The notes beneath the pieces are model-generated. The model searched no databases and had not been told where the DNA came from. It was given only the letters and a program-made list of their open reading frames with translations. A stretch of 64,000 nt of DNA. Source: a candidate division TA06 bacterium (GTDB taxonomy: Bacteria > Edwardsbacteria > AC1 > EtOH8). Positions 4,776 to 49,610 of this stretch are shown piece after piece (position 1 is the stretch's first letter; every line of letters starts with the position of its first letter). Both the position numbers and the translations under genes were made by a program. The stretch spans positions 143,095 through 207,094 of the forward strand of contig JACRJI010000013.1 of NCBI GenBank assembly GCA_016235665.1, given 5' to 3'.

Positions 4776-5457
4776 ATTCGTCGAAGGGCAGGAACTGCCG
4801 GGCAAGCTGATAGCGGTGGAAGGGCTGGACGGCTCGGGCAAGTCCACCCAGATCCACCTGGTCAAGCGCTGGCTGGAACTGGAGGGCTACAAGGTCTTCT
4901 TCACCGAGTGGAACTCCTCGCCCCTGGTCCGGCAGTCGGTGAAGAACGGGAAGCGGGAGCAGCTCTTGACCCCCACCACCTTTGCCCTGATCCACTGCAC
5001 CGATTTCGCGGACCGCTACGAGCGCCAGATCCTGCCGCTGCTCCACGCCGGGTACATCGTGCTGGCCGACCGCTACATCTACACCGCCTTCGCCCGGGAC
5101 GCGGTGCGGGGCTGCGACCGGGACTGGGTGAAAAGCCTGTACAGCTATGCGGTCCACCCCCACGTCACCTTCTTCTTCGACGTGCCGCTGGAGATGGCGC
5201 TGTCCCGGATCATGTCGGGGCGGGCCAAGCTGAAGCACTACGAGGCCGGCATGGACATGGGTTATTCTCCCGACATCCTCCAGAGCTTCAAGACCTTTCA
5301 GGGGAAGATGCGGGAGGAATACCTGCGGATGACCGAGGAGTTCGGGTTCATCAAGATAGACGTGGGCCGCCCGCCCGACCAGCTGCAGAAAGAGGTGCGG
5401 GGCCACATTCAGGAACGGATAGAGCTGGAGAGGTACAAATGGAAAACATCGCGCTGA
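4765..5457 (+). CDS. tmk: thymidylate kinase-like protein (copy 1)
   Basis: P-loop LIAVEGLDGSGKSTQ, DRY motif (LADRYIYT) and lid arginines. Overlaps the ppx stop by 11 nt. Confidence 0.75.
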   Translation: MTAKFVEGQELPGKLIAVEGLDGSGKSTQIHLVKRWLELEGYKVFFTEWNSSPLVRQSVKNGKREQLLTPTTFALIHCTDFADRYERQILPLLHAGYIVLADRYIYTAFARDAVRGCDRDWVKSLYSYAVHPHVTFFFDVPLEMALSRIMSGRAKLKHYEAGMDMGYSPDILQSFKTFQGKMREEYLRMTEEFGFIKIDVGRPPDQLQKEVRGHIQERIELERYKWKTSR

Positions 5458-6877: not shown

Positions 6878-6895
6878 AGATATATCGTTCGGCTC

Positions 6896-6924: not shown

Positions 6925-7132
6925 AATTAATTAGAGATAAATAATTGCATATTGTGTAAAATATGCATCATTTCCCGGAAACCGAAATAGTTATAGAGTT
7001 ATCTAACTTATAATCCCCTTTACAGTCCATTGAATTTAAAGACCTTGCAGCTTTTGGTAAAACAGTCAAAGCGAAGAGATCCGGCACTATTCTTGCAGTA
7101 ATATTCTTCAATATATAAAACATGGAGAAAAC

Positions 7133-10639: not shown

Positions 10640-10656
10640 ATCAACCTGCATGGAAT

Positions 10657-10689
10657 ACGGGCGTTTTCTGATCAAGAGAAAACGCCCGT
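10657..10689 (+). terminator. stem-loop (12-bp stem ACGGGCGTTTTC / GAAAACGCCCGT) downstream of the C25 peptidase gene
   Basis: Perfect inverted repeat with a 9-nt loop. T-tract is weak, so possibly only partial termination. Confidence 0.4.
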
Positions 10690-10711
10690 TGACTTTAAGC
10701 GAAAGGCAGAT

Positions 10712-13342: not shown

Positions 13343-13370
13343 AATAAATATACTTCAAAGTAAGGGAGCC

Positions 13371-15014
13371 ATGAAAATAAAATTATTATTGATCCCGGTT
13401 ATGCTGTTGCTGCTGGTCCCGGCTGGTCTACAGGCCCAGTCCGGCAGTTTGATCCCGGTGAAGATCTACATCTCCTCCCACGATGATGTCTACAAGTTTC
13501 AGAAGCTGGGGGTGGGAATAGAGGAACTTAGGGACGGTTATATAGAAGCCCGTATTGCTAAATCCAAGTATGATGAGTTGATCTCTTTGGGCTGGAAAGT
13601 GGAGGGAAGATTGGTGAAAAAAATTGATCCCAAAATCGCTCTCCAATATCACAATTATATCCAAATGACCAATTTCCTCGATTCGATCCACGCCCTTTAT
13701 CCGGCTATCACGAAGAAGGTGTCAATCGGACAATCGGTCCAGGGCCGGGAACTGTGGGCGTTTCTGGTCACCGACAACCCGGACAGCGCGGAAAACGAAG
13801 CCGAGGTGCGGCTGGCCGCCAATATCCATGGCGATGAAACCGTTGGGCGGGAACTGTGCCTGGCGATGATAGATTCTCTAACGAAAGTGTATGGAGGCGT
13901 TTCCCCAATTACAGATATGGTGAACACCCGGGAAATTTGGTTCATGCCATCGTTAAATCCCGATGGTTATGAATTAGACCAGCGATATAACGCCAACGGC
14001 GTTGATCTTAACCGTAATTACCCTGTGCCAGATGGTTCGATCGGTGAGGATGGCACATATGTCAATGAAGTTGAAACACAATTGTTCATGGATTTTTGGT
14101 CAAGCAAACGGGCGGTGTTGTCCTTAAATTATCACGGTGGGGCTTTGGTCGCCAACTATCCCTGGGATTATACCGTCATCCGTTGCCCGGATGACCTGCT
14201 GGCGAAAGAAGTCTCTTTGGGTTATTCACGGCTGAATCCGCCGATGTACGCCAGTGCCGTTTTTGACAGCGGCGTGACCAACGGTTGGGATTGGTACTAT
14301 GTTTATGGGTCACTGCAGGACTGGTCGTATCATGGTACGTCTTGTTTGGATGTCACGATGGAAATAGGGACCAAATGGCCGGAGGCAAGTACTCTCCCGG
14401 CTTATTGGAGTGACAACCGCGGCGGCATGCTTTTCTTCATCCGCCAGGCTGGATTGGGACTTCAGGGCCTGGTCACAGATTCCGCCACCGGCCTGCCCCT
14501 GGACTTTGCCCAGGTTGAGGTGGCGGGGATTGACAAGCCGGTCTACTGCGATTCCATAGGGGACTATCACCGGATGCTGCTTTCGGGCGCTTACGATCTC
14601 ACTTTTTCCAAGGACGGATATTTCCCAAAGACCATCAGCGGTGTCCGGGTGAATTATGACAGCCTGACCAGCCTGGACGTGGCCCTGGTCAAGGATCCGG
14701 GGGGAGTAGAGGGCAATCCCTGCGAGATCGTGGCCCAGCGGATAAAACTGCTTAAGACCTATCCCAACCCCCTGCATAATTCAGTTACCGTTGCCTTCCA
14801 GTTATTTCAACGGTCAAGCTGCGATCTTAGAATATACAATGTTGCCGGCCAGCAGGTACGGAAAATACTTGACCGCACCATGGATCCCGGTATTTATGAT
14901 ATTAACTGGAATGGAATTGATGACGCCGGGCGGAAAACTGCCGACGGTGTTTATTGTTTTTGCTTGGATGCCGGGGGACAAAAAATTATGGGGAAAATGG
15001 TTAAGATCGATTGA
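13371..15014 (+). CDS. M14-family zinc carboxypeptidase with carboxypeptidase-regulatory-like domain and T9SS C-terminal sorting domain
   Basis: HGDETVGRE, NPDGYE and NRNYP motifs. CarbopepD_reg-like beta-sandwich (GLVTDSATGLPLDFAQVEVAGID...YDLTFSKDGYFPKT). CTD (LRIYNVAGQQV...GVYCFCL). Confidence 0.85.
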   Translation: MKIKLLLIPVMLLLLVPAGLQAQSGSLIPVKIYISSHDDVYKFQKLGVGIEELRDGYIEARIAKSKYDELISLGWKVEGRLVKKIDPKIALQYHNYIQMTNFLDSIHALYPAITKKVSIGQSVQGRELWAFLVTDNPDSAENEAEVRLAANIHGDETVGRELCLAMIDSLTKVYGGVSPITDMVNTREIWFMPSLNPDGYELDQRYNANGVDLNRNYPVPDGSIGEDGTYVNEVETQLFMDFWSSKRAVLSLNYHGGALVANYPWDYTVIRCPDDLLAKEVSLGYSRLNPPMYASAVFDSGVTNGWDWYYVYGSLQDWSYHGTSCLDVTMEIGTKWPEASTLPAYWSDNRGGMLFFIRQAGLGLQGLVTDSATGLPLDFAQVEVAGIDKPVYCDSIGDYHRMLLSGAYDLTFSKDGYFPKTISGVRVNYDSLTSLDVALVKDPGGVEGNPCEIVAQRIKLLKTYPNPLHNSVTVAFQLFQRSSCDLRIYNVAGQQVRKILDRTMDPGIYDINWNGIDDAGRKTADGVYCFCLDAGGQKIMGKMVKID

Positions 15015-15070
15015 GTAAATTCGCCGTTTTTTAAAGAGCGTTTTTCATTCTTGATTGGAAGGACCGAACC

Positions 15071-17995
15071 ATGAAATTAAAAGCACTATCGTTTTTACTG
15101 ATGGCGTTAGTTTCGGCAGTTGCCGGGACTGCCAACGAGCAGTTGATATCCGTTTCCCTTAAGGATCGGAATGATATTATCCGGTGGAGAGAAGAGAGAA
15201 TACCCACGCGGCTGTTTTTGTCGGGACAAGCCCTGTCGGTTGCCGATATCCAAACAGTAATCTATTTGAAAACCAGGGGCTATCAGGTTGAGGTTATCGG
15301 CCCATGGAACAATCAAGGCGCATACTGGGTCGCCAGGAACGGTATTCCGATAGGGAAAGGGGAGCCCGAAAAGGTGCTTTGGCAAAAGGGGAAATCAGTG
15401 ATAGGATACAACTCTTCCGGTAAGGAACTATCGTTGCCAGATCCTCACAGGTATCAGCCCTTTCCGGTAAAAGCGTTGCCAGCCAGATACTGGGATCAGA
15501 TATTATTAGTCCGGTCGGCCCCGGCCAGGCTGAAGTCCGATCCGGAAATACAGGTCCTGGTGGACCAGGTAAATTCCGATACTCTGACCGCGACCATCCA
15601 GAGACTTCAGGATTTTAAGACCAGACTGGCCCTTTCCGACAGCTGTTATGCCGCGGAGGAATGGTTGCTTCAAAAATTCAATTCCTACGGATACAGCGCC
15701 GAATATGACAGTTTCTACCACGCCCGAAGCCTTTATTTTGCCGAGCCCTGGCCCGGGGCAGGATACGACCGTAATGTATTGGCCAAGGCCCCCGGTTCTT
15801 CCAGGCCATTACAGGAGTTTGTTATCTGCGGCCACCTGGATGCCACCACCCTGGGCGGTTATTCCCACCCCATCGATACCAGTCTCTGCCGCACCGACGC
15901 TCCCGGGGCCGATGACAATGCCACGGGCAGCGCCGCCACTTTGGAAATTGCCCGGATCTGCCGGGGAACGTCATTCAACCCATCCCTAACTTATGCGTTA
16001 TGGGCGGCGGAGGAAAGCTATCTGCTGGGAAGTGACCACTATGCCGCCAGTACCCAAAACCTGGGCACCGATCTCCGGGGAGTGGTGAACATGGATATGG
16101 TGGGGTGGATGAATAGTACAGCTATTGATATAGATGTTGGAAGCAGCGACCCATTTTCTCAGTGGCTCAATGATTTGTATTCGGAGGCGGCGCTGATCTA
16201 CGCCCCGGAGCTGACCGTTTATCAAGGCATGGGGAACGGTTCCGATGATATGTCATTCGCCGACCGGGGTTACCCCGCGCTGATGCTGATCGCCGATTAT
16301 TATGCCGGCTTCAATCCCTATTATCATACCACAGAAGAGACGATAGACAAGATCAACCCCTTGCTATACACCGCAGTGACCAAAGCCTCGCTAGCGGTGA
16401 CCGCCATATTGGGGCTTTATCCCGGTCCGGTGGATTCTGTCAAATGCCGCGACCTGGGGGATGGCAGCAGACTGGTGGTCAGCTGGCAGCCCAGCCCGGA
16501 AGGTGATGTTACCGGATATAGGATATACCGGGGAAGAAGCAGCGGGAATTATGGCGATACAACTTGGGTGCCGGGACAGACGTCAAATATTGACACTATT
16601 GACGGATTGTATTCGGATTCAGCTTATTATTTCGCGGTGACGGCCATGGGATATAATAGCCGCGAAAGTTATGATGCCATGGAAGTCAGCGGAACCCCCA
16701 AGCTTCAACCCCAGGCTCCAGCCGGCCTGGCCGTAGTTCCGGTAGACTCCGGAAGCGCTTTGTTATGGGAGAACAATTTTGAACTCGATCTGGAGGGATA
16801 CAATGTCTACCGCAGGATAGATAATGGAACTTTTGACAGCCTGGCTTATACCACAGATACTTTTTTACTTGACAAGCCACTGTCCGGGGCCAGCCGTTAT
16901 TACTACAAGATAAAAGCCAGGGACACGGACGGCAACTGCAGCCAGTTTTCCGACTCGGTCTACTGCCGCCCAATTACGCTGGACCAGGGGATTCTTCTGG
17001 TTGACGAGACCAATAACTGGTCGACTGGGAGCTTTCCGAGGGACGTCCAGCAGGACAGCTTTTATAATTACATTATGTCAGGATATAAATACGAACAGTA
17101 CGAGTATGGAACCTCCCTGCAGAAGCCAATATTAGCGGACTTCGGAACGTACTCCACAGTGGCTTGGCTGGCCGATGATTACGCCGGGATGCTAGCTACT
17201 GGGGCGGTCAATGATCTGAGGAGCTACCTTGATAACGGTGGCAAACTGTGGTTGGCTGGTTGGAAACCTTCGGGGAATCTGCATAACAGCATAACCTATC
17301 CGGCGAACTATGTTGCCGGTGACTTGTCCTACGACTGTTTCAAGATTACGCATGCAGAGTTGTCGGGAACGGCGGACTCCTTTAAAACGGCCTTAGGCTT
17401 ATATGGTTACCCTGATATAACAATAGATACCCTGAAATATCCCTCCACCATCTGGGGAAAGACCTTGCGGAGCATAGAGGCCCTGACCCCGCTGGCCGGA
17501 GCGGACACCATATATGTGATGGACATGAAGAACAATGGCAGTACTTTTGAGGGCCGGGCCTGCGCGGTGCGGGACTCGGGCAAGACGGTGTTCTTTGGCT
17601 TCCCGCTGTACTTCATGGACCGGGAACAGGTAAAAGCAGCGGCCCAGAAGGTGATGGCGGAGTTCGGGGAGGAGCCGCTTGGGGCGGCGGGCAAGCCGGA
17701 GAACTTGGAGCGGATAACTGATTTCAGATTGTTCCAGAACTCACCCAACCCGTTCAAGAACCAGACGGCAATAAGTTATCAGCTTCCCCAAACGGGCCGG
17801 GTCAAACTGAACATCTATAACATCGCGGGCCAATTGGTGAAAACCCTGGTGAATGCAGAGCAAACAGCAGGCTGTTATTCAATTGCCTGGAATGGCAGCA
17901 ATGACAACGGAATGAATGTATCCAATGGTGTATATATATACCGGTTTCAGGCAGGAGATATGAGCCAAACCAGAAAAATGATAGTTTTAAAATAA
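15071..17995 (+). CDS. M28-family aminopeptidase with fibronectin-III-like repeats and T9SS C-terminal sorting domain
   Basis: M28 zinc ligand contexts (ICGHLDATT, GADDNATGSAATLEIARI, AAEESYLLGSDHY, GNGSDDMSFADRGYPAL). FN3-like repeats (VSWQPSPEGDVTGYRIYRG). CTD ending VYIYRFQAGDMSQTRKMIVLK. Confidence 0.85.
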   Translation: MKLKALSFLLMALVSAVAGTANEQLISVSLKDRNDIIRWREERIPTRLFLSGQALSVADIQTVIYLKTRGYQVEVIGPWNNQGAYWVARNGIPIGKGEPEKVLWQKGKSVIGYNSSGKELSLPDPHRYQPFPVKALPARYWDQILLVRSAPARLKSDPEIQVLVDQVNSDTLTATIQRLQDFKTRLALSDSCYAAEEWLLQKFNSYGYSAEYDSFYHARSLYFAEPWPGAGYDRNVLAKAPGSSRPLQEFVICGHLDATTLGGYSHPIDTSLCRTDAPGADDNATGSAATLEIARICRGTSFNPSLTYALWAAEESYLLGSDHYAASTQNLGTDLRGVVNMDMVGWMNSTAIDIDVGSSDPFSQWLNDLYSEAALIYAPELTVYQGMGNGSDDMSFADRGYPALMLIADYYAGFNPYYHTTEETIDKINPLLYTAVTKASLAVTAILGLYPGPVDSVKCRDLGDGSRLVVSWQPSPEGDVTGYRIYRGRSSGNYGDTTWVPGQTSNIDTIDGLYSDSAYYFAVTAMGYNSRESYDAMEVSGTPKLQPQAPAGLAVVPVDSGSALLWENNFELDLEGYNVYRRIDNGTFDSLAYTTDTFLLDKPLSGASRYYYKIKARDTDGNCSQFSDSVYCRPITLDQGILLVDETNNWSTGSFPRDVQQDSFYNYIMSGYKYEQYEYGTSLQKPILADFGTYSTVAWLADDYAGMLATGAVNDLRSYLDNGGKLWLAGWKPSGNLHNSITYPANYVAGDLSYDCFKITHAELSGTADSFKTALGLYGYPDITIDTLKYPSTIWGKTLRSIEALTPLAGADTIYVMDMKNNGSTFEGRACAVRDSGKTVFFGFPLYFMDREQVKAAAQKVMAEFGEEPLGAAGKPENLERITDFRLFQNSPNPFKNQTAISYQLPQTGRVKLNIYNIAGQLVKTLVNAEQTAGCYSIAWNGSNDNGMNVSNGVYIYRFQAGDMSQTRKMIVLK

Positions 17996-35469: not shown

Positions 35470-38289
35470 ATGTTGTTTTCCAAGAAAAAAGAAGAAAAGG
35501 CGCCCCTCAGTCCCATGGAAAATCTCAAGAAGGAGGAGGAAGCCCTGATCACCCAGGTGGAGCAGGGCCGCCGCAGCTACACCTCGCTGGACCAGCTTTT
35601 GGCCGACCGCAAGGCCATGCTGGAAGATGTCAATCACCGGCTGGCAGAGTCTTTGGGCGAAGAGATGTCCATGACCCAGAGGATGGAGGAAGCGCAGGGC
35701 AAGCTGGACGACATCAACCGCAAGCTGGACGACCGCACCAAGGAGGATTCCAACCTGGCCACCAAGATATGGGAGAAACGGGCCGAGCTTCTGAAGATAA
35801 ACCAGCAGATGGGGGAGGACAATAAAAAACTGGCGGCCATAGAGGAAAAGAGCCAGGGCCTGCAGGCCGATCTGATGCTGCTGGAGCAGTCCCATTCCGA
35901 ACAGCAGAGCCAGGCCGACAGCTGGAAGGCCGAACTGGCCAAGCTGCAGCAGGCCATTAAAGAGCGCCAGGCCGAGCAGGTTGAGGTCGATTCCAAGTTC
36001 AAGGAGCATGAAGCCAGGCTGGCCGAAGTGGACGGGACCCTGAAGTCCTGGCAGGACCAGGCGGCCGAGGCCGAAGGCCGGGTCGGCAAATTCAAGGCGG
36101 AGGAGGAAGCCTTAAAACAAAAGATCGAGGAGATCAGCAACCAGCAGGCGGCCATCCTGTCCGACCTGACCATGGCCGAGCAGGAAAAGAACGACATGCT
36201 GGCCGAAGCCCAAAAGAGCCGGGAGGAAGCCGAAGCCGTGAGGGCGGAGATCAAAATTTTGGTTTTGCAGAAGGACGAACTGGTCAAAGGCATCGAAGAG
36301 GTCAAGCACTCTGAATCACAGGTACTGGAGCGGCATCAGACCCTTAAGCAGGAAGAGGACCAGATCCGGCAGAGGATCGCCGGACTTCAGGCCCAGGAAT
36401 CGTCGGTCACTACCAAGGTGGAAGCCTTGAACGGGGCCCTGGCCGACTCGGAATCCAAGCTTCAGGCCCTGGCACAGGACCATCACAATCACCGCCAGCA
36501 AATAGAGAGCATGACGGCAGGGCTGTCTTCCAAGGAAAAGGAATTGTCCGAAAAACAGCAGCAGCATGAAGGCCTGATTAAGGCGATGGAACAGATGGAA
36601 ACGGAGAAGACCCAGGCCGCCGCCATGCTGGAGGAGATACAGACCAATGTCTTTAAGGCGGAAACCAGGCAGGCCGAGCTGGAACAGCGCAATGCCGAAC
36701 TGGTTCAGATAGTAGAGGCCGATACGGCCAAGGCCGCCGGACTGGAAAAGGAGATCGCCCAGCGCCAGCACGAGGTGGCGGCGGTGCGGGAACTGGAAAG
36801 CTACCTGGCCGACATTCGCGGCCAGATAGAAGAAGCAAAACAGCACCTGCAGAAGATCGGAGAGGACCGGGTCCAGGGCGAGCAGCAGATGGAACAACTG
36901 TCTTTGCAAAAACAGGAATTGGAGTCACAGGTAAAACAGCAGATGGAAGAACTGGACTCCAAAAAACAGGAAGCTGAGTCCCAAGCCGGCCAGTGGGAAT
37001 CCAGACTGAACGAGCACAATCAAAAAATGGCGGAGCTTGAACCGCAGCGAATCCAGATGGAAGAGGCGGTCACAGCCTTGTTCCGGCAAAAAGAGGAACT
37101 GGAGCAGGGCATAGCCGGGCTGAAGAACGAGACCCAGTTGCTGGAAGAGGCCAATCAGGAGCTCAACCAACTGAAAGCCGAGCGCAAGGAGCTTCAGGCC
37201 GAGGTCAAGAAGATAAAACAGCAGAAACAGGAATTTGCCCAGTCGGCCGAGGAAAGCCAGGCCAAACTGGATAAGTCGGAAGCCCGGCTGGAAAAGGTGA
37301 AAACCGAGGAAGCCCAGTTGAAGGAAAGTCTGGCCGCCGCCAAAAAGGAAGTGGCTGATATCGGTAAGGAACGGGCCGAGCTGGAGAAATACCTGCACCA
37401 GAAGCAGGACCTGCTGGCCGAACAAAAAGGATTGAAATCCAGCGTGGACGCCCTGAAGGCCGAGCTGGCTGCTTCCCAGGAGCAGCTGGATGTGCTTAAG
37501 GAAGAGGAGAAGGGCTGGAGCCTGAGGCTGGAGGATAACAAGAAACAGGCCCAACAGATGGAAAATCTGCTGGAAACATTAAGGACTGACGAGGAAAAGG
37601 TTAAGCACCGTCTGGAAGAGGCCGGACAGGCTGCCGAAAAGATCGCGGTCATTGAGCAGGAGATTTCAGGCAAAAAGAACGAGATAGATGAATTGAATGC
37701 CCAGGCCGATGAGGCCCGCAGCCGGATGGAGGCCTTGAAGAAGGAACAGGCCGAAATGGAGCAGGAGAAGGCCCGCCGCCGCGAAGAGGAGATGTCGGCT
37801 TTGACCAAGCTGAAATCCAAGGTAAGGCCCCAGGGGCTTGGGGCCGGGACGACCCCATCCCCGGCACCCGCCACCCCAGCCATTGCTCCGATCCCGGAAC
37901 AGCCATTGGCGGCGGAGCGCCCGGCCCTGGCCGCCCGGCCATTGTCGCCGTTTGCCGGAAAGCCGCCGGAACCGGCCAAGCCGCTGGGCCTGCCCAAGGC
38001 TGCCCCGGCCCTGTTGAAACCGGCCTCGCCGCTGTCCGCTCCCCATCAGGCGGTACTGCCGATCAAAGAGCACACGTCCCCGCTAAAGCCAGTTTCCCCC
38101 TTCTCCAACCCGCAGGCCCGGCCGGGACTTGCGCCCAAAGTGGCGGTCAATCCCCTGGGCAGGATGCCATTGCCGGTAAAACCCCAGACCGGTCTACGGC
38201 CGCCCGTGCCCCCGGTGGCCCACCGGCCCGCGCCGCTGAGCCCGCCCAGACCTTTGGAAAAACCCAAGGGGGATGTCTCCTTCAGCTGA
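35470..38289 (+). CDS. 939-aa coiled-coil protein with proline-rich C-terminal tail
   Basis: About 780 residues of uninterrupted heptad-like E/K/Q/L-rich sequence followed by a ~150-aa P/A/L-rich low-complexity tail. Many spurious overlapping ORFs on both strands stem from this low-complexity composition. Confidence 0.7.
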   Translation: MLFSKKKEEKAPLSPMENLKKEEEALITQVEQGRRSYTSLDQLLADRKAMLEDVNHRLAESLGEEMSMTQRMEEAQGKLDDINRKLDDRTKEDSNLATKIWEKRAELLKINQQMGEDNKKLAAIEEKSQGLQADLMLLEQSHSEQQSQADSWKAELAKLQQAIKERQAEQVEVDSKFKEHEARLAEVDGTLKSWQDQAAEAEGRVGKFKAEEEALKQKIEEISNQQAAILSDLTMAEQEKNDMLAEAQKSREEAEAVRAEIKILVLQKDELVKGIEEVKHSESQVLERHQTLKQEEDQIRQRIAGLQAQESSVTTKVEALNGALADSESKLQALAQDHHNHRQQIESMTAGLSSKEKELSEKQQQHEGLIKAMEQMETEKTQAAAMLEEIQTNVFKAETRQAELEQRNAELVQIVEADTAKAAGLEKEIAQRQHEVAAVRELESYLADIRGQIEEAKQHLQKIGEDRVQGEQQMEQLSLQKQELESQVKQQMEELDSKKQEAESQAGQWESRLNEHNQKMAELEPQRIQMEEAVTALFRQKEELEQGIAGLKNETQLLEEANQELNQLKAERKELQAEVKKIKQQKQEFAQSAEESQAKLDKSEARLEKVKTEEAQLKESLAAAKKEVADIGKERAELEKYLHQKQDLLAEQKGLKSSVDALKAELAASQEQLDVLKEEEKGWSLRLEDNKKQAQQMENLLETLRTDEEKVKHRLEEAGQAAEKIAVIEQEISGKKNEIDELNAQADEARSRMEALKKEQAEMEQEKARRREEEMSALTKLKSKVRPQGLGAGTTPSPAPATPAIAPIPEQPLAAERPALAARPLSPFAGKPPEPAKPLGLPKAAPALLKPASPLSAPHQAVLPIKEHTSPLKPVSPFSNPQARPGLAPKVAVNPLGRMPLPVKPQTGLRPPVPPVAHRPAPLSPPRPLEKPKGDVSFS

Positions 38290-38298
38290 TAGGATCAT

Positions 38299-39186
<888 letters not shown>

Positions 39187-41534: not shown

Positions 41535-41555
41535 ATGTTATTTTAAGTATTTTAT

Positions 41556-41595
41556 GAAAAATCCCCCAAAAAATATTTTTGGGGGATTTTTCATT
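41556..41595 (+). terminator. rho-independent terminator (GAAAAATCCCCCAAAAAA-ta-TTTTTGGGGGATTTTTC)
   Basis: Perfect long stem with flanking T-run after the FTR-rubredoxin gene. Confidence 0.85.
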
Positions 41596-41647
41596 AGTTG
41601 TTTTATCTTAAATATTTGACAAAAATGGTTAAAATTACAAGCAATCC

Positions 41648-41661
41648 TGACATAAATGTCA
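41648..41661 (+). promoter_or_regulatory. 14-bp perfect palindrome TGACATAAATGTCA (candidate enhancer-binding-protein site, UAS-1)
   Basis: About 200 bp upstream of a sigma-54-type promoter. A second near-identical palindrome lies 101 bp downstream. Confidence 0.4.
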
Positions 41662-41749
41662 AAAGGCATGACAAATAGGTCATGGTAACATAACAATATA
41701 AAATGCAATGTGTTGAAAAGTAAAAAAATCTTAATAACGCGTCGAACAG

Positions 41750-41763
41750 GACATTTATGTCAG
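41750..41763 (+). promoter_or_regulatory. palindrome GACATTTATGTCAG (candidate UAS-2)
   Basis: 13/14 identical to the reverse complement of UAS-1. Centre lies about 95 bp upstream of the -24 element. Confidence 0.4.
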
Positions 41764-41848
41764 GTTTTTAATAAAAAAGTATTAATTATTAAAAACAATC
41801 AAATTAATAACTATATGAACAACAAATGATTAGATTACGTATAAAATT

Positions 41849-41863
41849 ATGGCACAGTAATTG
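41849..41863 (+). promoter_or_regulatory. sigma-54 (-24/-12) promoter TGGCAC-N5-TTGC
   Basis: Exact match to the RpoN consensus TGGCACnnnnnTTGC, about 58 nt upstream of the first small secreted paralog. Confidence 0.6.
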
Positions 41864-41920
41864 CTATTATAATAGAATGAATAAACTTAGAAAATACTAA
41901 CTTTAAACAAAGGGTTTAAA

Positions 41921-42250
41921 ATGAAAAAAGCAATTTTCGGGGTTCTGTTTGTTGCGATAATTGCTTCACTTGCTTTTGCCGGGATATTTCTTTGTTATGG
42001 CTATGCAAGTGTTGGCGAAGGCTGGACAATTTCATGTCCAAGTATAAGCAACACGGGAACAGATATAACAGATTCAGATGGGTATTTTTCAATTACTAGA
42101 GGTGATGTACCAGCTGGCACCGAGTATTATTTGAAAGCCACTAAAACGGGGTATATAGCAATGTATAGTGCAATTTATACCTTCGGTGGTTCGACATATG
42201 GTGATAATTTAGGAAATGTTGCATTTCATAAGGGACTGCCAGTGGAATAA
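41921..42250 (+). CDS. small secreted protein, paralog family member 1 (109 aa)
   Basis: Sec signal peptide MKKAIFGVLFVAIIASLAFA. Family motifs GWTISCPS, YYLKA and GG..G.V.F. AT-rich coding sequence. Confidence 0.7.
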   Translation: MKKAIFGVLFVAIIASLAFAGIFLCYGYASVGEGWTISCPSISNTGTDITDSDGYFSITRGDVPAGTEYYLKATKTGYIAMYSAIYTFGGSTYGDNLGNVAFHKGLPVE

Positions 42251-42432
42251 GGAAATAACATTACCGAATGTATTCTAAATTTATTCACAAATCCTCCTGG
42301 CTTAGTTTACAAAGTCAAAAGGGACTCACAGCATTAGAGAGAAATGGTATCAATAAAGCAGTGCGGCACCTTTGGAATTACATTCTGCTTAAAGTGTAAT
42401 AACTTAGAGGGAACTTTAGAAAGGATTTATTA

Positions 42433-42780
42433 ATGAAGAAGATTTTACTTGGTGTAATTCTTGTAGCAAGCATTGCTTCAGTTGCTTTTGCTTTGCCTTG
42501 GATGGTAACAGCTACTTCAACCAATGTTAAAGGATGGACGATTTCTGTACCCGGCGCACCGACCTCAATTCCAAATGTTGCAAATCAAGGCGACTCAGGG
42601 TCAGGTTTTTATATACAATGGTCAGGCACTGCTCCAGCAACTGGCGGCTATTATTGCAAAGCAGATTCAACCGGAAAAGCCTCAAGATATTATGGTTGGT
42701 GGTGGTATGATGTTACTTATGGGGATACACAACTTGGAGCAATTACATTCGGGACCAGGCTGCCAGCTAATCCATATTAA
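42433..42780 (+). CDS. small secreted protein, paralog family member 2 (115 aa)
   Basis: Signal peptide MKKILLGVILVASIASVAFA. Family motifs GWTISVPG, YYCKADSTG and G..TF. Confidence 0.65.
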   Translation: MKKILLGVILVASIASVAFALPWMVTATSTNVKGWTISVPGAPTSIPNVANQGDSGSGFYIQWSGTAPATGGYYCKADSTGKASRYYGWWWYDVTYGDTQLGAITFGTRLPANPY

Positions 42781-42982
42781 TCAATAGTAATAAAGTTAAC
42801 AATCAATAAAAATCCCTCTAAGTTATTTCTCTTTTCACATAGGATAAACTGTCTGTTTTATTATAAGTAACATTTAAATACTATGGAAAATGAAACAATC
42901 TGGCATAACGGTAAAAGTTATAACAAATAACAATAACAAAAACTAAAAAAGTGAGTGGTAAAACTCAAGAAAGGACCGGTAA

Positions 42983-43321
42983 ATGAAAAAAGCGATCATC
43001 ATCCTATCACTTCTCGTACTATGTGCCAGTTCAATAGCACTAGCAGTACCTGCCTGGTGCAATGGGAAGGCAAAATTGGGGATAAAATATTTAAATGGCT
43101 GGACAATACAAGTAAGTAACGGGACTTATGGTTGGGCGATAGCGCAGCCAGACTCAGGGTATTTTGGCATGTCATACTCTACGCATCCGCCTGCCGGTTA
43201 TTTTTCTTTTACAGCAGATTCCTCTGGCCAATCACGGCTATTTTCAAATGAATACTATTATGACGGATCTTCCTATGGGGTGCAGTACGGTACGGTACCA
43301 TTTTATACTTCGCCCAGATAA
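42983..43321 (+). CDS. small secreted protein, paralog family member 3 (112 aa)
   Basis: Signal peptide MKKAIIILSLLVLCASSIALA. Motifs NGWTIQVS, FTADSSG and YG..P. Confidence 0.65.
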   Translation: MKKAIIILSLLVLCASSIALAVPAWCNGKAKLGIKYLNGWTIQVSNGTYGWAIAQPDSGYFGMSYSTHPPAGYFSFTADSSGQSRLFSNEYYYDGSSYGVQYGTVPFYTSPR

Positions 43322-43406
43322 ACGATAAACGTACATTCACGTTTAGTTTTTCAATGAACTGAAACTTACTGCCAGTTCAATAATAAATATACATCATGCG
43401 AAAATT

Positions 43407-43421
43407 ATGGTATGGTAATTG
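43407..43421 (+). promoter_or_regulatory. sigma-54-like promoter TGGTAT-N5-TTGC upstream of paralog 4
   Basis: GG and GC dinucleotides at canonical -24/-12 spacing within an ~85-bp leader that is ~80% identical to the leader of paralog 1. Confidence 0.45.
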
Positions 43422-43480
43422 CGTTAATAATGTATTGAATAAACTTAAAAAACACTAACTTAAAAAACAAAGGACTTCAA

Positions 43481-43813
43481 ATGAAAAAAGCAATTTTCGG
43501 GATTCTGTTTATCTCAATATTTGTAGCAGGGGCATTTGCTGCATTGTTTCTATGCGATGGAAAAGCAAGTTTAGGAACTGGTTGGACAATATCATGTCCT
43601 TCAATTGCTGGCACTGGAACATGGACAACCACCTCAGATAGTTTATTTGCAATAGTTAGAACTACGACACCACAGACAGGAACCTACTACTATTTAAAAG
43701 CAGAAAGCGGATCAACAACGCGTTATTCTGATTGGTACCAATATGGAGGTGGCATGGATCACCTAGGCTTAGTGAACTTTAATTTAACTAGACCTCCTCT
43801 AATGGAACAATAA
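43481..43813 (+). CDS. small secreted protein, paralog family member 4 (110 aa)
   Basis: Signal peptide MKKAIFGILFISIFVAGAFA, nearly identical to member 1. Motifs GWTISCPSI, YYYLKAESG and GG....G.V.F. Confidence 0.7.
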   Translation: MKKAIFGILFISIFVAGAFAALFLCDGKASLGTGWTISCPSIAGTGTWTTTSDSLFAIVRTTTPQTGTYYYLKAESGSTTRYSDWYQYGGGMDHLGLVNFNLTRPPLMEQ

Positions 43814-43842
43814 ATTAAAATATTTTAAGTTTATTCATAAAA

Positions 43843-43878
43843 CCCCGGACTTTGTTCCCAAAGTCCGGGGTTTTATCT
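43843..43878. terminator. bidirectional rho-independent terminator (CCCCGGACTTTG-ttcc-CAAAGTCCGGGG + TTTTAT)
   Basis: Perfect 12-bp stem with T-run on + and A-run on - sides, between convergent genes. Confidence 0.8.
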
Positions 43879-43900
43879 TGGCGCAGAGCGGCCGGCTGGT

Positions 43901-46917: not shown

Positions 46918-47421
46918 TTATACCCTTTTTTCGTAATGTTTTGTTAATGTCTTATTGTATTCTTCATCTACATGGAATGCAGTAACCCAGTAATACTTTG
47001 TTTTTTTATGTTGTAAAATCAAACAATAATTGTATTCTCTTAGCCAAATATTTCTACGTACCCCTTTATTTTGGGGACCTTCCTTATAATCAAAAATTGT
47101 AATTTCGGGTCTTGTTCCGCTAGTCATAATAACTTTAGCCCATGGTAATCTTTCGGCACGCCGGTAATCTGGAAGCCTTTCTTTAATTCCGCCTTCAGAC
47201 AATTGATCTTTACTAACAACATGCCAAAATCCCTCTTCTTTGCCCTGTCCATCTTCATTTATCGTTCTATTATAATCGACACGTAGGTTATTGTGAAAGG
47301 TTGAATTCCATTTAAAATCGGTGACAAAAATTTTATAAAGTTCATCTACGATAGTACTCCATTCACCAGCCATTGGTAATAAGGGTGGCAAAAAACTGCC
47401 ATTGTCGTTACTTTGTGGCAT
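46918..47421 (-). CDS. hypothetical 167-aa protein (no recognisable family), AT-rich, translationally coupled to the DUF3800 gene
   Basis: 14-nt overlap with the stop of the upstream DUF3800 gene. GC content is far below the genome average. No signal peptide or TM segment. Confidence 0.55.
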   Translation of the reverse strand: MPQSNDNGSFLPPLLPMAGEWSTIVDELYKIFVTDFKWNSTFHNNLRVDYNRTINEDGQGKEEGFWHVVSKDQLSEGGIKERLPDYRRAERLPWAKVIMTSGTRPEITIFDYKEGPQNKGVRRNIWLREYNYCLILQHKKTKYYWVTAFHVDEEYNKTLTKHYEKRV

Positions 47422-48124
47422 TATTTTTCTCTCTCGGCAAAAAAGTAAAAATATTAAACTTATCTTCCCATGGTGCTGTTGTTTCTGTTAAAGTAAGTTT
47501 AACTTTTGCTTTTATCAACTCTATTAGTGAAAGTTTAGCTGTACTTTCTATTAAACCTCTATTTACATAAGAGAGTGCACCAATAAAGAAATCTGCAATT
47601 TGTAATATTTCACTTTCTTTTGATCTAATTTGTTGCATTATATTAATTATCTCATGCGAATTGGTTGGATAACTATTCTTTAAAATATCTTTTAATGTGT
47701 TTATTTTTATTTGACTTTGGGTGTCCTTAATATCCATAAAAATATTATATACGGACTCGCATGTAATCATATTGCGCAGTAAGTAATAATACATTTTATA
47801 ATAAAATGAGTCATGGCTACCTTGATTATAATATTGATGATCAAGGTTTTTTTTATTTTTTACGACAACACATCTAAAACCTAAATCGTTTTGGGAGAAA
47901 AAATATTCAATTATATCTCTATAATAATCTAATCGTGAGTTTGATACTTTTTGCCATTTTAATTCCCCACGACAGCTATGCTTTTCTTTTAATTGACGTA
48001 ACTCTTCTGTTATATGTCGAACTTTTTCTATAGGACATTTTACAGCCCCTAATAGCATGACTTCTTGCTTGTCATGCTCCAGATGACAGCTTTCATCACA
48101 ATAAATATTAATAATAGAAGCCAT
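47408..48124 (-). CDS. DUF3800-family protein
   Basis: N-terminal IINIYCDES (DES motif) and C-terminal LQIADFFIGAL (QxxD motif), which from memory are the two signature motifs of Pfam DUF3800. AT-rich. Start placed at MASIIN. Confidence 0.65.
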   Translation of the reverse strand: MASIINIYCDESCHLEHDKQEVMLLGAVKCPIEKVRHITEELRQLKEKHSCRGELKWQKVSNSRLDYYRDIIEYFFSQNDLGFRCVVVKNKKNLDHQYYNQGSHDSFYYKMYYYLLRNMITCESVYNIFMDIKDTQSQIKINTLKDILKNSYPTNSHEIINIMQQIRSKESEILQIADFFIGALSYVNRGLIESTAKLSLIELIKAKVKLTLTETTAPWEDKFNIFTFLPREKNNATK

Positions 48125-48149
48125 GCTCGATTCTCTTAAGGTTGTTAAT

Positions 48150-49610
48150 TTATCCAACATTAACCGTTAGCATTTCTATACTCTTTTGAACTCTTTTCAA
48201 TGTCTCCTCTTTCCCTAGTATCTCCGCCAGTTCCGTGGCCCCGCCGGGGGTGACCTCGCGGCCGGAGAGGGCTATGCGCAGAGGCGTAAGGAAGGTGTTG
48301 GCCTTTACCCCCAGCGTCTCTACCACCACATACAGCGCCTGCTTGATGGTCTCATGGTCCCAGCTTCCCAGTTTCTCCAGTTCCGCCCGGCAGGTCTTAA
48401 GGTATTCCAGGGAATTCATCAGGTCGGTCTTGGCCTTTTTGTTGACGAACATTTCCTTTGCATATTCCGGCAGGGCATCGATGAAATCCACCCGGGCCGG
48501 GATGTCCGACAGCACCACGGTGCGCTGTTGCATCAGACCGGACAGCTTGCGCAGGTCAATTCCCGGGCTTTTGACGGCCTGCTGCAGCCAAGGCAGGGCT
48601 GCTTCGTAAAAGATCTCGGGCGTCATTTTGCGGATATACTCGCCGTTCATCCATTTCAACTTCTCCACGTCGAAGATGGCCGGGGAATTGTTCAGCCCGG
48701 CCACGGAGAAGACCTTCTTCAACTCATCCAATGAAAATATCTCCCGTTCATCCTTGGGGTTCCATCCCAGCAGGGCGATGTAATTGACGATAGCCTCCTT
48801 GAGATACCCCTGATTATAGAAATCTTCGAAGGAGGCGTCGCCCTCGCGCTTGGAAAGCTTCTTTCCTGCTGCCTTCATGATCAAGGGCAGGTGGATGTAG
48901 GCCGGGATCTCCCATTCCAGGGCCTGATAGATCAGGTTGTACTTGGGGGCCGAGGACAGGTATTCGCTGCCGCGGATGACGTGCGATATCTGCATCAGGT
49001 GGTCGTCCACCACGTTGGCGAAGTTGTAGGTGGGCAGGCCGTCTGACTTCAACAGGATCCCGTCCTCCAAGGTGGAGTTCTCCACCGTCACTGTGCCGTA
49101 GACCAGGTCGTCAAAGCTGGTGGAGCCCCCGCGGGGGATCTTCTGGCGAATCACTGAAGGCTCGCCCGAGGCCGCCCGTTTCTTGGCCTCTTCCGGACCG
49201 ATGTCCCGGCAGGGGTCCTGGAATTTGACGGCAGTATTGTTCCCGCCGGCTTCCTGGCGCAGGGACTCCAGCTTCTCCTTGCTGCAGAAACAGTAATAGC
49301 CGCCGTCCCTGGCGATAAGCTTTTCGGCCCATTCCTTATAGATGCTTTTCCGCTGGCTCTGGACATAGGGGCCGAAGGGGCCGCCGATATCCGGGCCCTC
49401 GTCATGTTCCAGACCCACCAGTTTCATTGTATTATAGATCACCTCGACCGAGCCCTCCACCAGCCGTTCCTGGTCGGTGTCCTCGATCCGCAGGATGAAC
49501 TTACCGTTCATGGTGCGGGCGATCAGGTAGGCATAGAGGGCGGTGCGAAGATTGCCGATGTGCATGTAGCCGGTGGGGCTGGGGGCGAAGCGGGTGCGGA
49601 CAGTAGGCAT
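48150..49610 (-). CDS. gltX: glutamyl-tRNA synthetase
   Basis: RTRFAPSPTGYMHIGNLRTALYAYL (HIGH), KLSKR KMSKS-like motif, GluRS architecture. Start at MPTVRTRF. Confidence 0.9.
   Translation of the reverse strand: MPTVRTRFAPSPTGYMHIGNLRTALYAYLIARTMNGKFILRIEDTDQERLVEGSVEVIYNTMKLVGLEHDEGPDIGGPFGPYVQSQRKSIYKEWAEKLIARDGGYYCFCSKEKLESLRQEAGGNNTAVKFQDPCRDIGPEEAKKRAASGEPSVIRQKIPRGGSTSFDDLVYGTVTVENSTLEDGILLKSDGLPTYNFANVVDDHLMQISHVIRGSEYLSSAPKYNLIYQALEWEIPAYIHLPLIMKAAGKKLSKREGDASFEDFYNQGYLKEAIVNYIALLGWNPKDEREIFSLDELKKVFSVAGLNNSPAIFDVEKLKWMNGEYIRKMTPEIFYEAALPWLQQAVKSPGIDLRKLSGLMQQRTVVLSDIPARVDFIDALPEYAKEMFVNKKAKTDLMNSLEYLKTCRAELEKLGSWDHETIKQALYVVVETLGVKANTFLTPLRIALSGREVTPGGATELAEILGKEETLKRVQKSIEMLTVNVG

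What the first reader, a model, noticed from the sequence alone, without database searches (positions are those of the whole stretch)
41849..43421. Canonical sigma-54 (-24/-12) promoters drive the small secreted paralogs, and members 1 and 4 share an almost identical 85-bp leader
TGGCACAGTAATTGC lies 58 nt upstream of member 1 and is an exact TGGCAC-N5-TTGC RpoN consensus. Member 4 has TGGTATGGTAATTGC at the same offset, inside a leader ~80% identical to that of member 1 (ATTATGG..GTAATTGC..TAATA...GAATAAACTTA.AAAA.ACTAACTT.AAA.CAAAGG). The leader similarity is much higher than the similarity of the coding regions, which suggests duplication with diversifying selection on the mature protein while regulation is kept. 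Member 2 has a weaker GG-N10-GC candidate (TGGTATCAATAAAGCA). Sigma-54 control means an enhancer-binding protein and a specific signal govern this family.
Basis: seen in the sequence. Interest (0 to 1): 0.6.

Follow-up and report, generated by a model that had tools for sequence, protein, structure and literature searches.

The report
Sigma-54 promoters plus mRNA end-pairing helices
Two of four small secreted-protein genes in an uncultured TA06 bacterium sit behind conserved sigma-54-type promoters, and the "conserved leader" is one arm of a helix in which the start of each mRNA pairs with the sequence just after its stop codon, a layout kept across the whole gene family.

Summary
TGGCACagtaaTTGC (41850-41864) is the only exact TGGCAC-N5-TTGC in the window. 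Member 4 has TGGTATggtaaTTGC at the same offset. The m1/m4 leaders are 75% identical, against 59-61% for the coding DNA.

The sigma-54 reading is supported for m1 and m4 only. Two syntenic single-gene loci from other metagenomes keep TGG..TTGC while the spacer and flanks vary. Three conserved TGACA-N4-TGTCA palindromes lie 120-220 nt upstream and look like enhancer sites. No rpoN or activator gene could be found or searched for. The m2 site is at chance level, and m3 lacks the -12 GC. dN/dS of 0.24-0.31 gives no sign of diversifying selection.

The main new result explains the conserved leader. It starts about 2 nt after the predicted start site and is the 5' arm of a 13-22 nt inverted repeat whose other arm follows the stop codon. 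Thirteen of 15 family genes, from the window and six related contigs, have such a pair. The arm sequences differ between genes, with compensatory changes. The helix appears in every full-length minimum-energy fold.

I read this as a 5'UTR/3'UTR closing helix that protects or processes the mRNA, like B. subtilis hbs but conserved across a family. Nothing has been tested experimentally.

The parts
41554..41594 (+). Terminator hairpin of the upstream ferredoxin-thioredoxin-reductase/rubredoxin gene. It marks the left edge of the AT-rich island.
   Evidence: 19-nt perfect arms followed by a T run
41643..41710 (.). Conserved far-upstream block holding two TGACA-N4-TGTCA-type palindromes: 41648-41661 TGACATAAATGTCA and 41669-41682 TGACAAATAGGTCA, 21 bp apart. 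Candidate enhancer (UAS) about 200-220 nt upstream of the predicted start.
   Evidence: Nearly invariant in window, L001 and L002 while the flanks vary. Motif clustering.
41749..41762 (.). Third palindrome, GGACATTTATGTCA, 101 bp from the first and about 120 nt upstream of the predicted start. Candidate proximal enhancer site.
   Evidence: three of the six window matches with at most one mismatch lie within 115 bp; 1.35 expected for the whole window
41850..41864 (+). Sigma-54-type -24/-12 element of m1, TGGCACagtaaTTGC. Predicted start is about 41876.
   Evidence: Conserved in L001 and L002.
41878..41892 (+). m1 5' arm of the closing helix, TGAATAAACTTAGAA. It begins 2 nt after the predicted start.
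41921..42250 (+). m1 CDS (HZA73_08810, 109 aa). Secreted transthyretin-like beta-sandwich protein.
42273..42287 (+). m1 3' arm, TTCTAAATTTATTCA. 14 of 15 positions pair with the 5' arm; there is one C-A mismatch. No terminator follows.
42345..42359 (+). m2 'weak candidate', TGGTATcaataAAGC. A bare GG-N10-GC, judged to be chance.
   Evidence: The implied start would be 27 nt upstream of the m2 5' arm. No orthologue was available to test conservation.
42398..42412 (+). m2 5' arm, AATAACTTAGAGGGA
42433..42780 (+). m2 CDS (115 aa)
42813..42827 (+). m2 3' arm, TCCCTCTAAGTTATT. Perfect 15/15 complement of the 5' arm.
42938..42947 (+). m3 5' arm, AAAAACTAAA. The weakest pair in the set: 10 nt, matched or exceeded by 14 of 1000 shuffles.
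42983..43321 (+). m3 CDS (112 aa)
43342..43351 (+). m3 3' arm, TTTAGTTTTT. It overlaps the T run after a small hairpin, which may be a weak terminator.
43408..43422 (+). Sigma-54-type element of m4, TGGTATggtaaTTGC. Predicted start is about 43434.
43436..43450 (+). m4 5' arm, TGAATAAACTTAAAA
43481..43813 (+). m4 CDS (HZA73_08825, 110 aa)
43823..43837 (+). m4 3' arm, TTTTAAGTTTATTCA. Perfect 15/15. It carries the change that compensates the G-to-A difference in the m4 5' arm.
43838..43876 (.). Strong terminator hairpin directly after the m4 3' arm. It is shared with the convergent rubrerythrin gene.
   Evidence: -33.6 kcal/mol

Best explanation
The locus is an AT-rich island in a candidate division TA06 genome. 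It holds four paralogous genes for about 110-aa secreted transthyretin-like beta-sandwich proteins.

(1) Transcription. m1, and its duplicate m4, are transcribed from sigma-54-type -24/-12 promoters. The m1 promoter is probably activated from three TGACA-N4-TGTCA palindromes 120-220 nt upstream by an unidentified enhancer-binding protein. m2 and m3 have no credible promoter of this type. They are probably read through from m1, since no terminator follows m1 or m2.

(2) The conserved leader. It is mainly the 5' arm of a long-range RNA helix. The first nucleotides of the transcript pair with a complementary 13-22 nt stretch 7-39 nt after the stop codon. In four cases this stretch lies directly before the terminator. 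The whole roughly 420-nt mRNA is thereby closed into a panhandle, and the ribosome-binding site stays free. This helix is a family-wide trait.

(3) Proposed role. The helix shields both mRNA ends from 5'-end-dependent and 3' exonucleolytic decay. In arrays it also delimits each cistron as a stable unit.

Shown: the motifs, their conservation, the complementarity and its covariation, and the predicted folds. Inferred: use of sigma-54, the start site, enhancer function, existence of the helix in vivo, and its stabilising effect.
For: Promoter:
- Exact consensus found once in the window, against 0.20 expected.
- The only two TGGYAY-N5-TTGC sites lie on the coding strand at the same offset upstream of m1 and m4.
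- In the syntenic loci L001 and L002, TGG and TTGC are invariant. Three of the five spacer bases, and the sequences on both sides, vary.
- In 1.16 Mb of fetched loci the motif occurs only in L001, L002 and one unrelated hit.
- The palindrome cluster is conserved and statistically unusual.
- The distance from the C of the -12 GC to the 5' arm is 13-14 nt in all four genes, so a start at +12 puts the mRNA 5' end 1-2 nt before the helix.
[quoted passage not shown] This genome has outer-membrane and T9SS cargo proteins.

Helix:
- Longest exact 5'/3' complement per gene: m2 15, m4 15, L001 18, L002 13 (15 with a G-U pair), L174a 20, L174c 17, L175b 22, L176a 14, L176d 19, L174d 11, m3 10. m1 pairs 14/15 and L177 20/22.
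- Control pairing the 5' region of one gene with the 3' region of another: mean 6.9, maximum 10, n=196. Shuffles average about 7.
- Among 161 window ORFs, only family genes exceed 11.
- An annotation-free scan finds only two exact inverted repeats of 13 nt or more with 250-700 nt spacing in the window. Both flank family genes.
- Arms differ between genes, with compensatory changes. m4 has G>A in the 5' arm and C>T in the 3' arm. m2 has AGGG/CCCT where m1 has AAAA/T-rich, plus a matched 1-nt deletion in both arms.
- The helix is in the MFE fold of 13 of 13 full-length RNAs, with pair probability 0.90-0.99.
- A terminator directly follows the 3' arm in m4, L001, L002 and L176a.
- Precedent: the hbs 14-nt 5'/3'-UTR interaction just upstream of the terminator protects that mRNA (PMC5737220).
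Against: - No rpoN or enhancer-binding-protein gene was seen in the 64-kb window or in 10 kb to its left. The rest of the genome could not be searched.
- Promoter conservation rests on only four related sequences.
- AT-rich -10-like hexamers (TATAAT, AATAAT, TATATT, TATAGT) lie 3-5 nt before the 5' arm in all four, so a sigma-70-type start is not excluded.
- m4 has no palindrome of its own.
- Family members outside the m1 clade have the helix but no sigma-54 motif and no recognisable promoter next to the arm. The link between helix and primary 5' end is therefore inferred only for the m1 clade.
- There are no expression or structure-probing data.
- Translating ribosomes could open a helix that encloses the ORF.
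Confidence: 0.6

Rival explanations
1. The helix is real at the RNA level, but it is a processing stalk rather than a shield. As with the stems that flank 16S/23S rRNA or phage T7 early mRNAs, RNase III would cut the 13-22 bp duplex to release each cistron from a polycistronic precursor, or to trigger decay as in icaR.
For: Family genes occur in arrays without terminators between them: m1-m2-m3, L174c-d, L176a-d. Members outside the m1 clade show no promoter next to the 5' arm. In L176, the 3' arm of gene a also pairs with the 5' arm of gene c, so gene b is enclosed as well. icaR 5'/3' pairing creates an RNase III substrate (PMC7821165).
Against: Single-gene loci (L001, L002) keep the helix even though nothing needs to be excised. 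In the m1 clade the predicted primary 5' end already coincides with the helix. Several duplexes (13-15 bp) are short for efficient RNase III cleavage (general knowledge, not tested here).
Confidence: 0.2
2. The TGGCAC-N5-TTGC block is not a sigma-54 promoter. Transcription starts from an AT-rich sigma-70-type -10 element just upstream of the 5' arm. The conserved block AAAATTrTGGyAy..AyAATTGC would then be a palindromic operator for a repressor or activator.
For: Every m1-clade leader has a TAnAnT-like hexamer 3-5 nt before the arm. AATTAT...AGTAATT in m1 becomes AATTGT...GACAATT in L002, so A>G and T>C change together at mirror positions. rpoN is unverified.
Against: The -10-like hexamers are not conserved in position or sequence and are expected in DNA that is nearly all A/T. 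No -35 element is present (one search gives at best 9/12, and there are fewer promoter-like sites than in shuffles). A palindrome does not explain the invariant GG and the terminal GC, which lie in its loop and outside it. The match to the 10-base sigma-54 core is exact.
Confidence: 0.12
3. The inverted repeats act on DNA, not RNA. They would be recombination sites for gene inversion (an on/off switch), or terminal repeats of small mobile gene cassettes.
For: Inverted repeats of 13-22 bp bracket about 420-bp units. The window has four units where relatives have one. A XerD-type tyrosine recombinase gene lies 2.4 kb upstream at 38299-39186.
Against: The arms differ in sequence between units within the same genome, which does not fit one recombinase or transposase recognising them. 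All three syntenic loci have the gene in the same orientation. The arms keep fixed positions relative to the ATG, the stop codon and the terminator. The recombinase gene is an ordinary XerD-like housekeeping type.
Confidence: 0.05

Closest known systems
Sigma-54 (RpoN) -24/-12 promoters with upstream enhancer sites for bacterial enhancer-binding proteins (e.g. glnAp2/NtrC; consensus TGGCAC-N5-TTGCW)
   Same: Exact core consensus and strict GG-N10-GC spacing. AT-rich region between -12 and the start. Clustered palindromes 120-220 nt upstream. The regulated genes encode exported proteins, which fits the 'bacterial exterior' theme of PMC3162934.
   Different: Neither the sigma factor, the activator nor the signal is identified. 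The TGACA-N4-TGTCA palindrome does not match the NtrC or NifA sites I recall (from memory, not tested). The m4 copy has TGGTAT and no enhancer site of its own.
B. subtilis hbs mRNA 5'/3'-UTR long-range interaction (Braun, Durand & Condon 2017, PMC5737220)
   Same: A fully complementary stretch of about 14 nt in the 5' UTR pairs with a sequence just upstream of the terminator. The ribosome-binding site is left free. The effect is protection from ribonuclease attack.
   Different: In hbs the 5' partner lies inside a long structured leader, and the 3'UTR is reported as not conserved between close relatives (PMC7821165). Here the 5' arm sits at the very 5' end of the predicted transcript. The helix is kept, with covariation, in 13 of 15 genes of a protein family from the window and six other contigs.
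[quoted passage not shown]
   Same: Intramolecular pairing of the 3'UTR with the 5'UTR of the same mRNA, forming double-stranded RNA.
   Different: In icaR the 3'UTR pairs with the Shine-Dalgarno sequence, blocks translation and recruits RNase III. Here the arm lies 15-25 nt upstream of the Shine-Dalgarno sequence and does not cover it.
RNase III processing stalks that flank rRNAs and phage early mRNAs
   Same: Complementary sequences on both sides of a functional RNA unit form a long-range stem that encloses it.
   Different: Those stems are usually longer and are known cleavage sites. Cleavage here is untested.
Transthyretin-like / carboxypeptidase regulatory-like beta-sandwich domains (the encoded proteins)
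   Same: The AlphaFold model (pLDDT 90) matches the transthyretin-like domain of carboxypeptidase D, the scaffoldin X-module and HIU hydrolase. It has a GYF...G.YYLKA..GY motif like that I recall for CarboxypepD_reg (from memory; that model did not match the paralogs).
   Different: These are stand-alone 90-aa domains with a signal peptide. They have no Pfam hit. The family is very small: 18 representatives among 1.84 billion.

Membership tests
Sigma-54-dependent promoter | GG and GC doublets exactly 10 nt apart, within TGGCAC-N5-TTGCW | tested here: met
   m1 and L001 match exactly. L002 has TGGCAT and m4 has TGGTAT with TTGC. Not met for m3 (no GC). m2 has only the bare doublets.
Sigma-54-dependent promoter | Intergenic position, correct strand and plausible distance to the gene, conserved among orthologues | tested here: met
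   56-58 nt before the ATG in all four genes. The motif is an island of conservation between variable flanks. It is absent from 1.1 Mb of unrelated loci except for one hit.
Sigma-54-dependent promoter | rpoN gene present in the genome | not testable with these tools
   No Sigma54 domains in any window ORF or in L178. The prior is high for diderm bacteria.
Sigma-54-dependent promoter | Cognate AAA+ enhancer-binding protein and its upstream binding sites | tested here: inconclusive
   Three conserved palindromes at about -120, -200 and -221. No activator gene was found nearby. m4 lacks sites of its own.
Sigma-54-dependent promoter | Transcription start about 12 nt downstream of the GC, dependent on RpoN | not testable with these tools
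   Indirect only: the 5' arm of the closing helix begins 13-14 nt after the C of GC in all four genes.
5'UTR/3'UTR long-range interaction (hbs type) | Extended complementarity between the leader and the region after the stop codon of the same gene, above chance | tested here: met
   13 of 15 genes. Exact runs of 10-22 nt, against a mean of 6.9 and a maximum of 10 in mismatched controls. Unique among window ORFs.
5'UTR/3'UTR long-range interaction (hbs type) | Complementarity maintained by compensatory change | tested here: met
   Arm sequences are unrelated or diverged between genes but each pair matches. Specific double changes occur in m4 and m2 relative to m1, L001 and L002. A formal covariation count was not possible because the arms cannot be aligned across clades.
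5'UTR/3'UTR long-range interaction (hbs type) | Both arms lie within one transcript, with the 3' arm upstream of the terminator | tested here: inconclusive
   A terminator directly follows the 3' arm in 4 of 13 genes. The 5' end is predicted only for the m1 clade. No transcript data are available.
5'UTR/3'UTR long-range interaction (hbs type) | The helix forms and affects mRNA stability in vivo | not testable with these tools
   Only thermodynamic prediction: in the MFE fold of 13 of 13 RNAs, pair probability 0.90-0.99.
Invertible DNA segment / mobile cassette | Shared repeat sequence recognised by one recombinase; both orientations or empty sites observed | tested here: not met
   Arms differ between units of one genome. 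Orientation is the same in all three syntenic loci. Read-level data were not available.

The most novel reading that the evidence does not exclude
The closing helix defines a portable expression module of 5' arm, leader, ORF and 3' arm. A small secreted-protein gene could then be duplicated or dropped into any transcription unit and still yield a discrete, end-protected mRNA, whether as a primary sigma-54 transcript or after RNase III-type excision. This would be a family-wide, covariation-supported bacterial counterpart of closed-loop mRNAs. In members without a terminator, the helix followed by its T-rich tail might even serve as a long-range terminator.
Probability: 0.2. Interest if true: 0.8.

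Novelty: new variant of a known kind. Interest (0 to 1): 0.58.

Why it matters
Sigma-54 promoters are routine, and finding one in a TA06 genome only extends a known system to an uncultured phylum. The helix is the more useful result.

Only a few bacterial 5'UTR/3'UTR interactions are known (hbs, icaR, RNAIII/hld). They were found one gene at a time, and hbs is reported not to be conserved even in close relatives. Here the interaction is conserved, with compensatory evolution, across a whole protein family in several uncultured organisms. That is the kind of comparative evidence that has been lacking for a selected role of mRNA end-pairing in bacteria.

It also gives a simple design to test: 13-22 nt arms, a free ribosome-binding site, and an optional terminator. 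Finally, it shows that 'conserved leader' signals next to promoters can be RNA structure rather than regulation of transcription.

Tried and rejected
- DNA pattern scans of metagenome contigs and genome contigs with the leader motif AATAAACTTANNAAANNCTAAC returned 171 loci. tblastn showed none encodes a family member.
- Protein searches found very few relatives. The contig of P0003, a fifth m1-clade gene, had no DNA available.
- I looked for rpoN and activator genes in all window ORFs and by extending the contig to the left. The right-hand look-up failed. A literature search for TA06 plus sigma-54 found nothing.
- Rfam gave no family at gathering score, only terminator-like noise.
- RNAduplex energies between the 5' and 3' flanks were too noisy to use because large interior loops are allowed. 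I replaced them with exact-complement statistics.
- A MAFFT alignment of the arms for a formal covariation count misplaced the m2 indel, so I abandoned it.
- The NCBI label 'DUF4148' for m3 was not reproduced by Pfam.
- I found no shared promoter motif upstream of the 5' arms outside the m1 clade.
Full report
**Setting**

The window comes from a candidate division TA06 MAG. m1 is HZA73_08810 and m4 is HZA73_08825, on a 208,797-nt contig. The genome is about 56% GC. It encodes T9SS-sorted proteases and an outer-membrane beta-barrel protein.

The finding lies in an AT-rich island at 41540-43880 (37-43% GC). On the left is a ferredoxin-thioredoxin-reductase/rubredoxin gene that ends in a terminator hairpin. 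On the right is a convergent rubrerythrin gene. The island holds four same-strand ORFs of 109-115 aa with signal peptides and no Pfam match.

A profile of the family finds only 18 representatives among 1.84 billion proteins. An AlphaFold model (pLDDT 90) has a transthyretin-like / carboxypeptidase-regulatory-type beta-sandwich fold.

**Observation check**

- TGGCACagtaaTTGC is at 41850-41864. It is the only exact TGGCAC-N5-TTGC in the window, where 0.20 are expected.
- TGGTATggtaaTTGC is at 43408-43422. Together these are the only two TGGYAY-N5-TTGC matches (0.78 expected). Both are on the coding strand and end 56 and 58 nt before the ATGs of m1 and m4.
- Relaxed matches with up to two mismatches are not enriched: 47 observed against 70 expected.
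- The 85-nt leaders are 75% identical. The coding DNA is 59-61% identical, and 55% in the mature part.

**Is it a sigma-54 promoter?**

Two other metagenome contigs are syntenic. L001 carries DOMON, glutaredoxin and FTR-rubredoxin genes, then one family gene, then a minus-strand gene cut off by the contig end. L002 carries the 3' part of the FTR-rubredoxin gene, one family gene and a rubrerythrin gene. Their upstream regions carry TGGCACagtaaTTGC (L001) and TGGCATgacaaTTGC (L002).

In the three-way alignment, the block AAAATTrTGGCAy-nnn-AATTGC is an island of conservation. The 13-14 nt after it and the sequence before it vary freely. TGG and TTGC never change, while three of the five spacer bases do.

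Across 1.16 Mb of fetched loci, TGGCAY-N5-TTGC occurs only in L001, L002 and one unrelated cyanobacterial locus.

Further upstream is a 68-nt, nearly invariant block (41643-41710) with two palindromes 21 bp apart: TGACATAAATGTCA and TGACAAATAGGTCA. A third, GGACATTTATGTCA, lies 101 bp from the first. Three of the six window matches to TGACA-N4-TGTCA with at most one mismatch fall within these 115 bp, against 1.35 expected for the whole window. Their centres are about 221, 200 and 120 nt upstream of the predicted start. Enhancer-binding proteins typically bind at such distances (general knowledge).

What is missing is the sigma factor itself. No RpoN or AAA+ activator domain occurs in any window ORF or in 10 kb to the left. 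I had no means to search the rest of the genome. [quoted passage not shown]

I put the sigma-54 reading of m1 and m4 at about 0.75.

**m2 and m3**

- The m2 site TGGTATcaataAAGC (42345-42359) has AAGC instead of TTGC. By my estimate from base composition, a bare GG-N10-GC is expected about 0.7 times by chance in the four upstream regions. The site would also start transcription 27 nt before the m2 helix arm, unlike the 1-2 nt seen in the m1 clade.
- m3 has TGGCAT at 42901 but TAAA where the -12 element should be.
- No terminator follows m1 or m2, so read-through from the m1 promoter is the simplest expectation.
- Nine family genes in L174-L177 have no suitably placed GG-N10-GC. L174 is a second locus of the same genome.

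Sigma-54 control is therefore a trait of the m1 clade, not of the family.

**What the conserved leader is**

The most conserved part of the leader is TGAATAAACTTAGAA (41878-41892). Its reverse complement lies just after the stop codon:

| Gene | 3' arm | Match to 5' arm |
|---|---|---|
| m1 | TTCTAAATTTATTCA, 42273-42287 | 14/15 |
| m4 | TTTTAAGTTTATTCA, 43823-43837 | 15/15 |
| L001 | — | 18/18 |
| L002 | — | 13, or 15 with a G-U pair |

m2 has a different pair, AATAACTTAGAGGGA with TCCCTCTAAGTTATT (15/15).

Genes in other contigs have pairs that are unrelated in sequence:

| Gene | 5' arm | Match |
|---|---|---|
| L174a | ATAAAGCTGGAAAAGAATCA | 20/20 |
| L174c | TGTTAGCAATAAAAAGC | 17/17 |
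| L175b | AAAATAACAAACTAAAAGTAAA | 22/22 |
| L176a | AATTGGAAAAGCAG | 14/14 |
| L176d | AACCAAAAGCAAAAGGCAA | 19/19 |
| L177 | — | 20/22 |
| L174d | — | 11, plus extensions |
| m3 | — | 10 |

Thirteen of 15 genes have a pair of their own. L176b lacks its own pair, but it is bracketed by the 3' arm of L176a and the 5' arm of L176c, which are complementary.

Controls:

- The 5' flank of one gene against the 3' flank of another gives a mean longest complement of 6.9 and a maximum of 10 (n=196). Dinucleotide shuffles average about 7.
- Among 161 window ORFs of at least 80 aa, only family genes exceed 11.
- An annotation-free scan finds just two exact inverted repeats of 13 nt or more with 250-700 nt spacing in the 64 kb. 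They flank m2 and m4.

Geometry and folding:

- The 5' arm starts 35-53 nt before the ATG and leaves the AAGG(A/G) ribosome-binding site free.
- The 3' arm starts 7-39 nt after the stop codon.
- A strong terminator hairpin follows the 3' arm directly in m4, L001, L002 and L176a.
- In full-length folds of 408-460 nt, the closing helix is in the minimum-energy structure for 13 of 13 genes, with pair probabilities of 0.90-0.99.

Compensatory changes are visible within the alignable clade:

- m4 has A where the others have G in the 5' arm, and T where they have C in the 3' arm.
- m2 has GAGGG/CCCTC where m1 has GAAAA and a T-rich partner.
- m2 also has a matched one-base deletion in both arms.

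Arms that differ between units of one genome argue against a recombinase or transposase site. The fixed relation to the ATG, the stop codon and the terminator argues for an mRNA-level element.

**How the two features fit together**

With the C of the -12 GC at 41864, the start is expected near 41876, and the helix arm begins at 41878. The same 13-14 nt distance holds in m4, L001 and L002. The predicted transcript would therefore have at most 1-2 unpaired nucleotides at its 5' end, followed by a duplex with its own 3' UTR.

A paired 5' end is a classical protection against 5'-end-dependent RNases (general knowledge). The hbs mRNA of B. subtilis shows experimentally that a 14-nt 5'/3'-UTR interaction just upstream of the terminator restrains RNase Y cleavage and 3' decay.

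My best explanation (0.6) is this. Sigma-54-dependent, enhancer-activated transcription of m1, and of its duplicate m4, produces panhandle mRNAs whose ends are mutually protected. m2 and m3 are expressed by read-through, each as its own helix-closed unit.

**Rivals**

- RNase III-type processing stalk (0.2). This is an RNA-level variant. It is favoured by the arrays and by the lack of promoters next to the arms outside the m1 clade.
- A sigma-70-type start from AT-rich -10-like hexamers, with the conserved block acting as a palindromic operator (0.12). One possible compensatory pair, AATTAT/AGTAATT against AATTGT/GACAATT, fits this. It does not explain the invariant GG and GC.
- DNA-level inversion or mobile cassette (0.05).

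**Selection**

dN/dS is 0.12/0.50 for the mature parts of L001 and L002. It is 0.54/1.75 for m1 and m4, with dS saturated. This is ordinary purifying selection. The leader is more conserved than the CDS because it is packed with functional non-coding elements, not because the protein is diversifying.

**Comparison and novelty**

The promoter is a new instance of a well-known kind. 5'/3'-UTR pairing is known from hbs, icaR and RNAIII. A review notes that these cases are few, that the hbs 3'UTR is not conserved among close relatives, and that the generality of the mechanism is open. A helix of this type kept with covariation throughout a protein family, and placed at the extreme 5' end of a predicted sigma-54 transcript, is a new variant. 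Everything about its function is inferred from sequence.

Noticed in passing
window 7082-7096 (+): A second sigma-54-like site, cCGGCACtattcTTGCa (one mismatch). It lies in the intergenic region 37 nt before the ATG (7133) of a C25 peptidase gene that heads a cluster of T9SS-sorted proteases (7133-17995). A TTGACA-type -35 element also lies in the same region at 6887.
   Followed up: partly
L174 1675-3979 (same genome, second locus; HZA73_03815/03820): Three further family genes, each with its own flanking helix (20/20, 17/17, 11+ nt). They lie upstream of a radical SAM gene. None has a sigma-54 motif.
   Followed up: yes
L176 1177-1190 and 1741-1754: The 3' arm of gene a is also complementary to the 5' arm of gene c. 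Alternative pairing could therefore enclose gene b, which has no arms of its own.
   Followed up: partly
window 41844-41864; L002 619-639: Inside the sigma-54 box, AATTAT..AGTAATT (m1) becomes AATTGT..GACAATT (L002). Two mirror positions change together, which hints at a palindromic operator overlapping the promoter.
   Followed up: partly
window 35470-38289 (+): A 939-aa ORF with no Pfam hit and a very strong purine/A skew (AT skew up to 0.43). It encodes a long E/K/Q-rich protein that looks coiled-coil (judged by eye), with a proline-rich C-terminal tail.
   Followed up: partly
window 46918-48160 (-): A 31% GC insert between the GlnRS and GluRS-like genes. It carries a DUF3800 protein and a 167-aa protein with no family. 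It looks horizontally acquired.
   Followed up: no
L178 4661-4672 / 5090-5101: A 12-nt inverted repeat brackets a 23S_rRNA_IVP-family gene (4698-5060) with the same geometry as the family helices. At this length it may be chance.
   Followed up: no
window 41921-43813 versus flanks; L001, L002: The family genes are 37-45% GC inside a 56% GC genome, although the locus is syntenic in three organisms. The low GC is therefore not simply recent transfer.
   Followed up: partly
leaders of most family genes: A recurrent A-rich (A)TAAAC(A) motif lies between the 5' arm and the Shine-Dalgarno sequence, for example TAAACAAT, CAATAAAC and GAAATAAAC. It could be a translational enhancer or a protein-binding site.
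   Followed up: no
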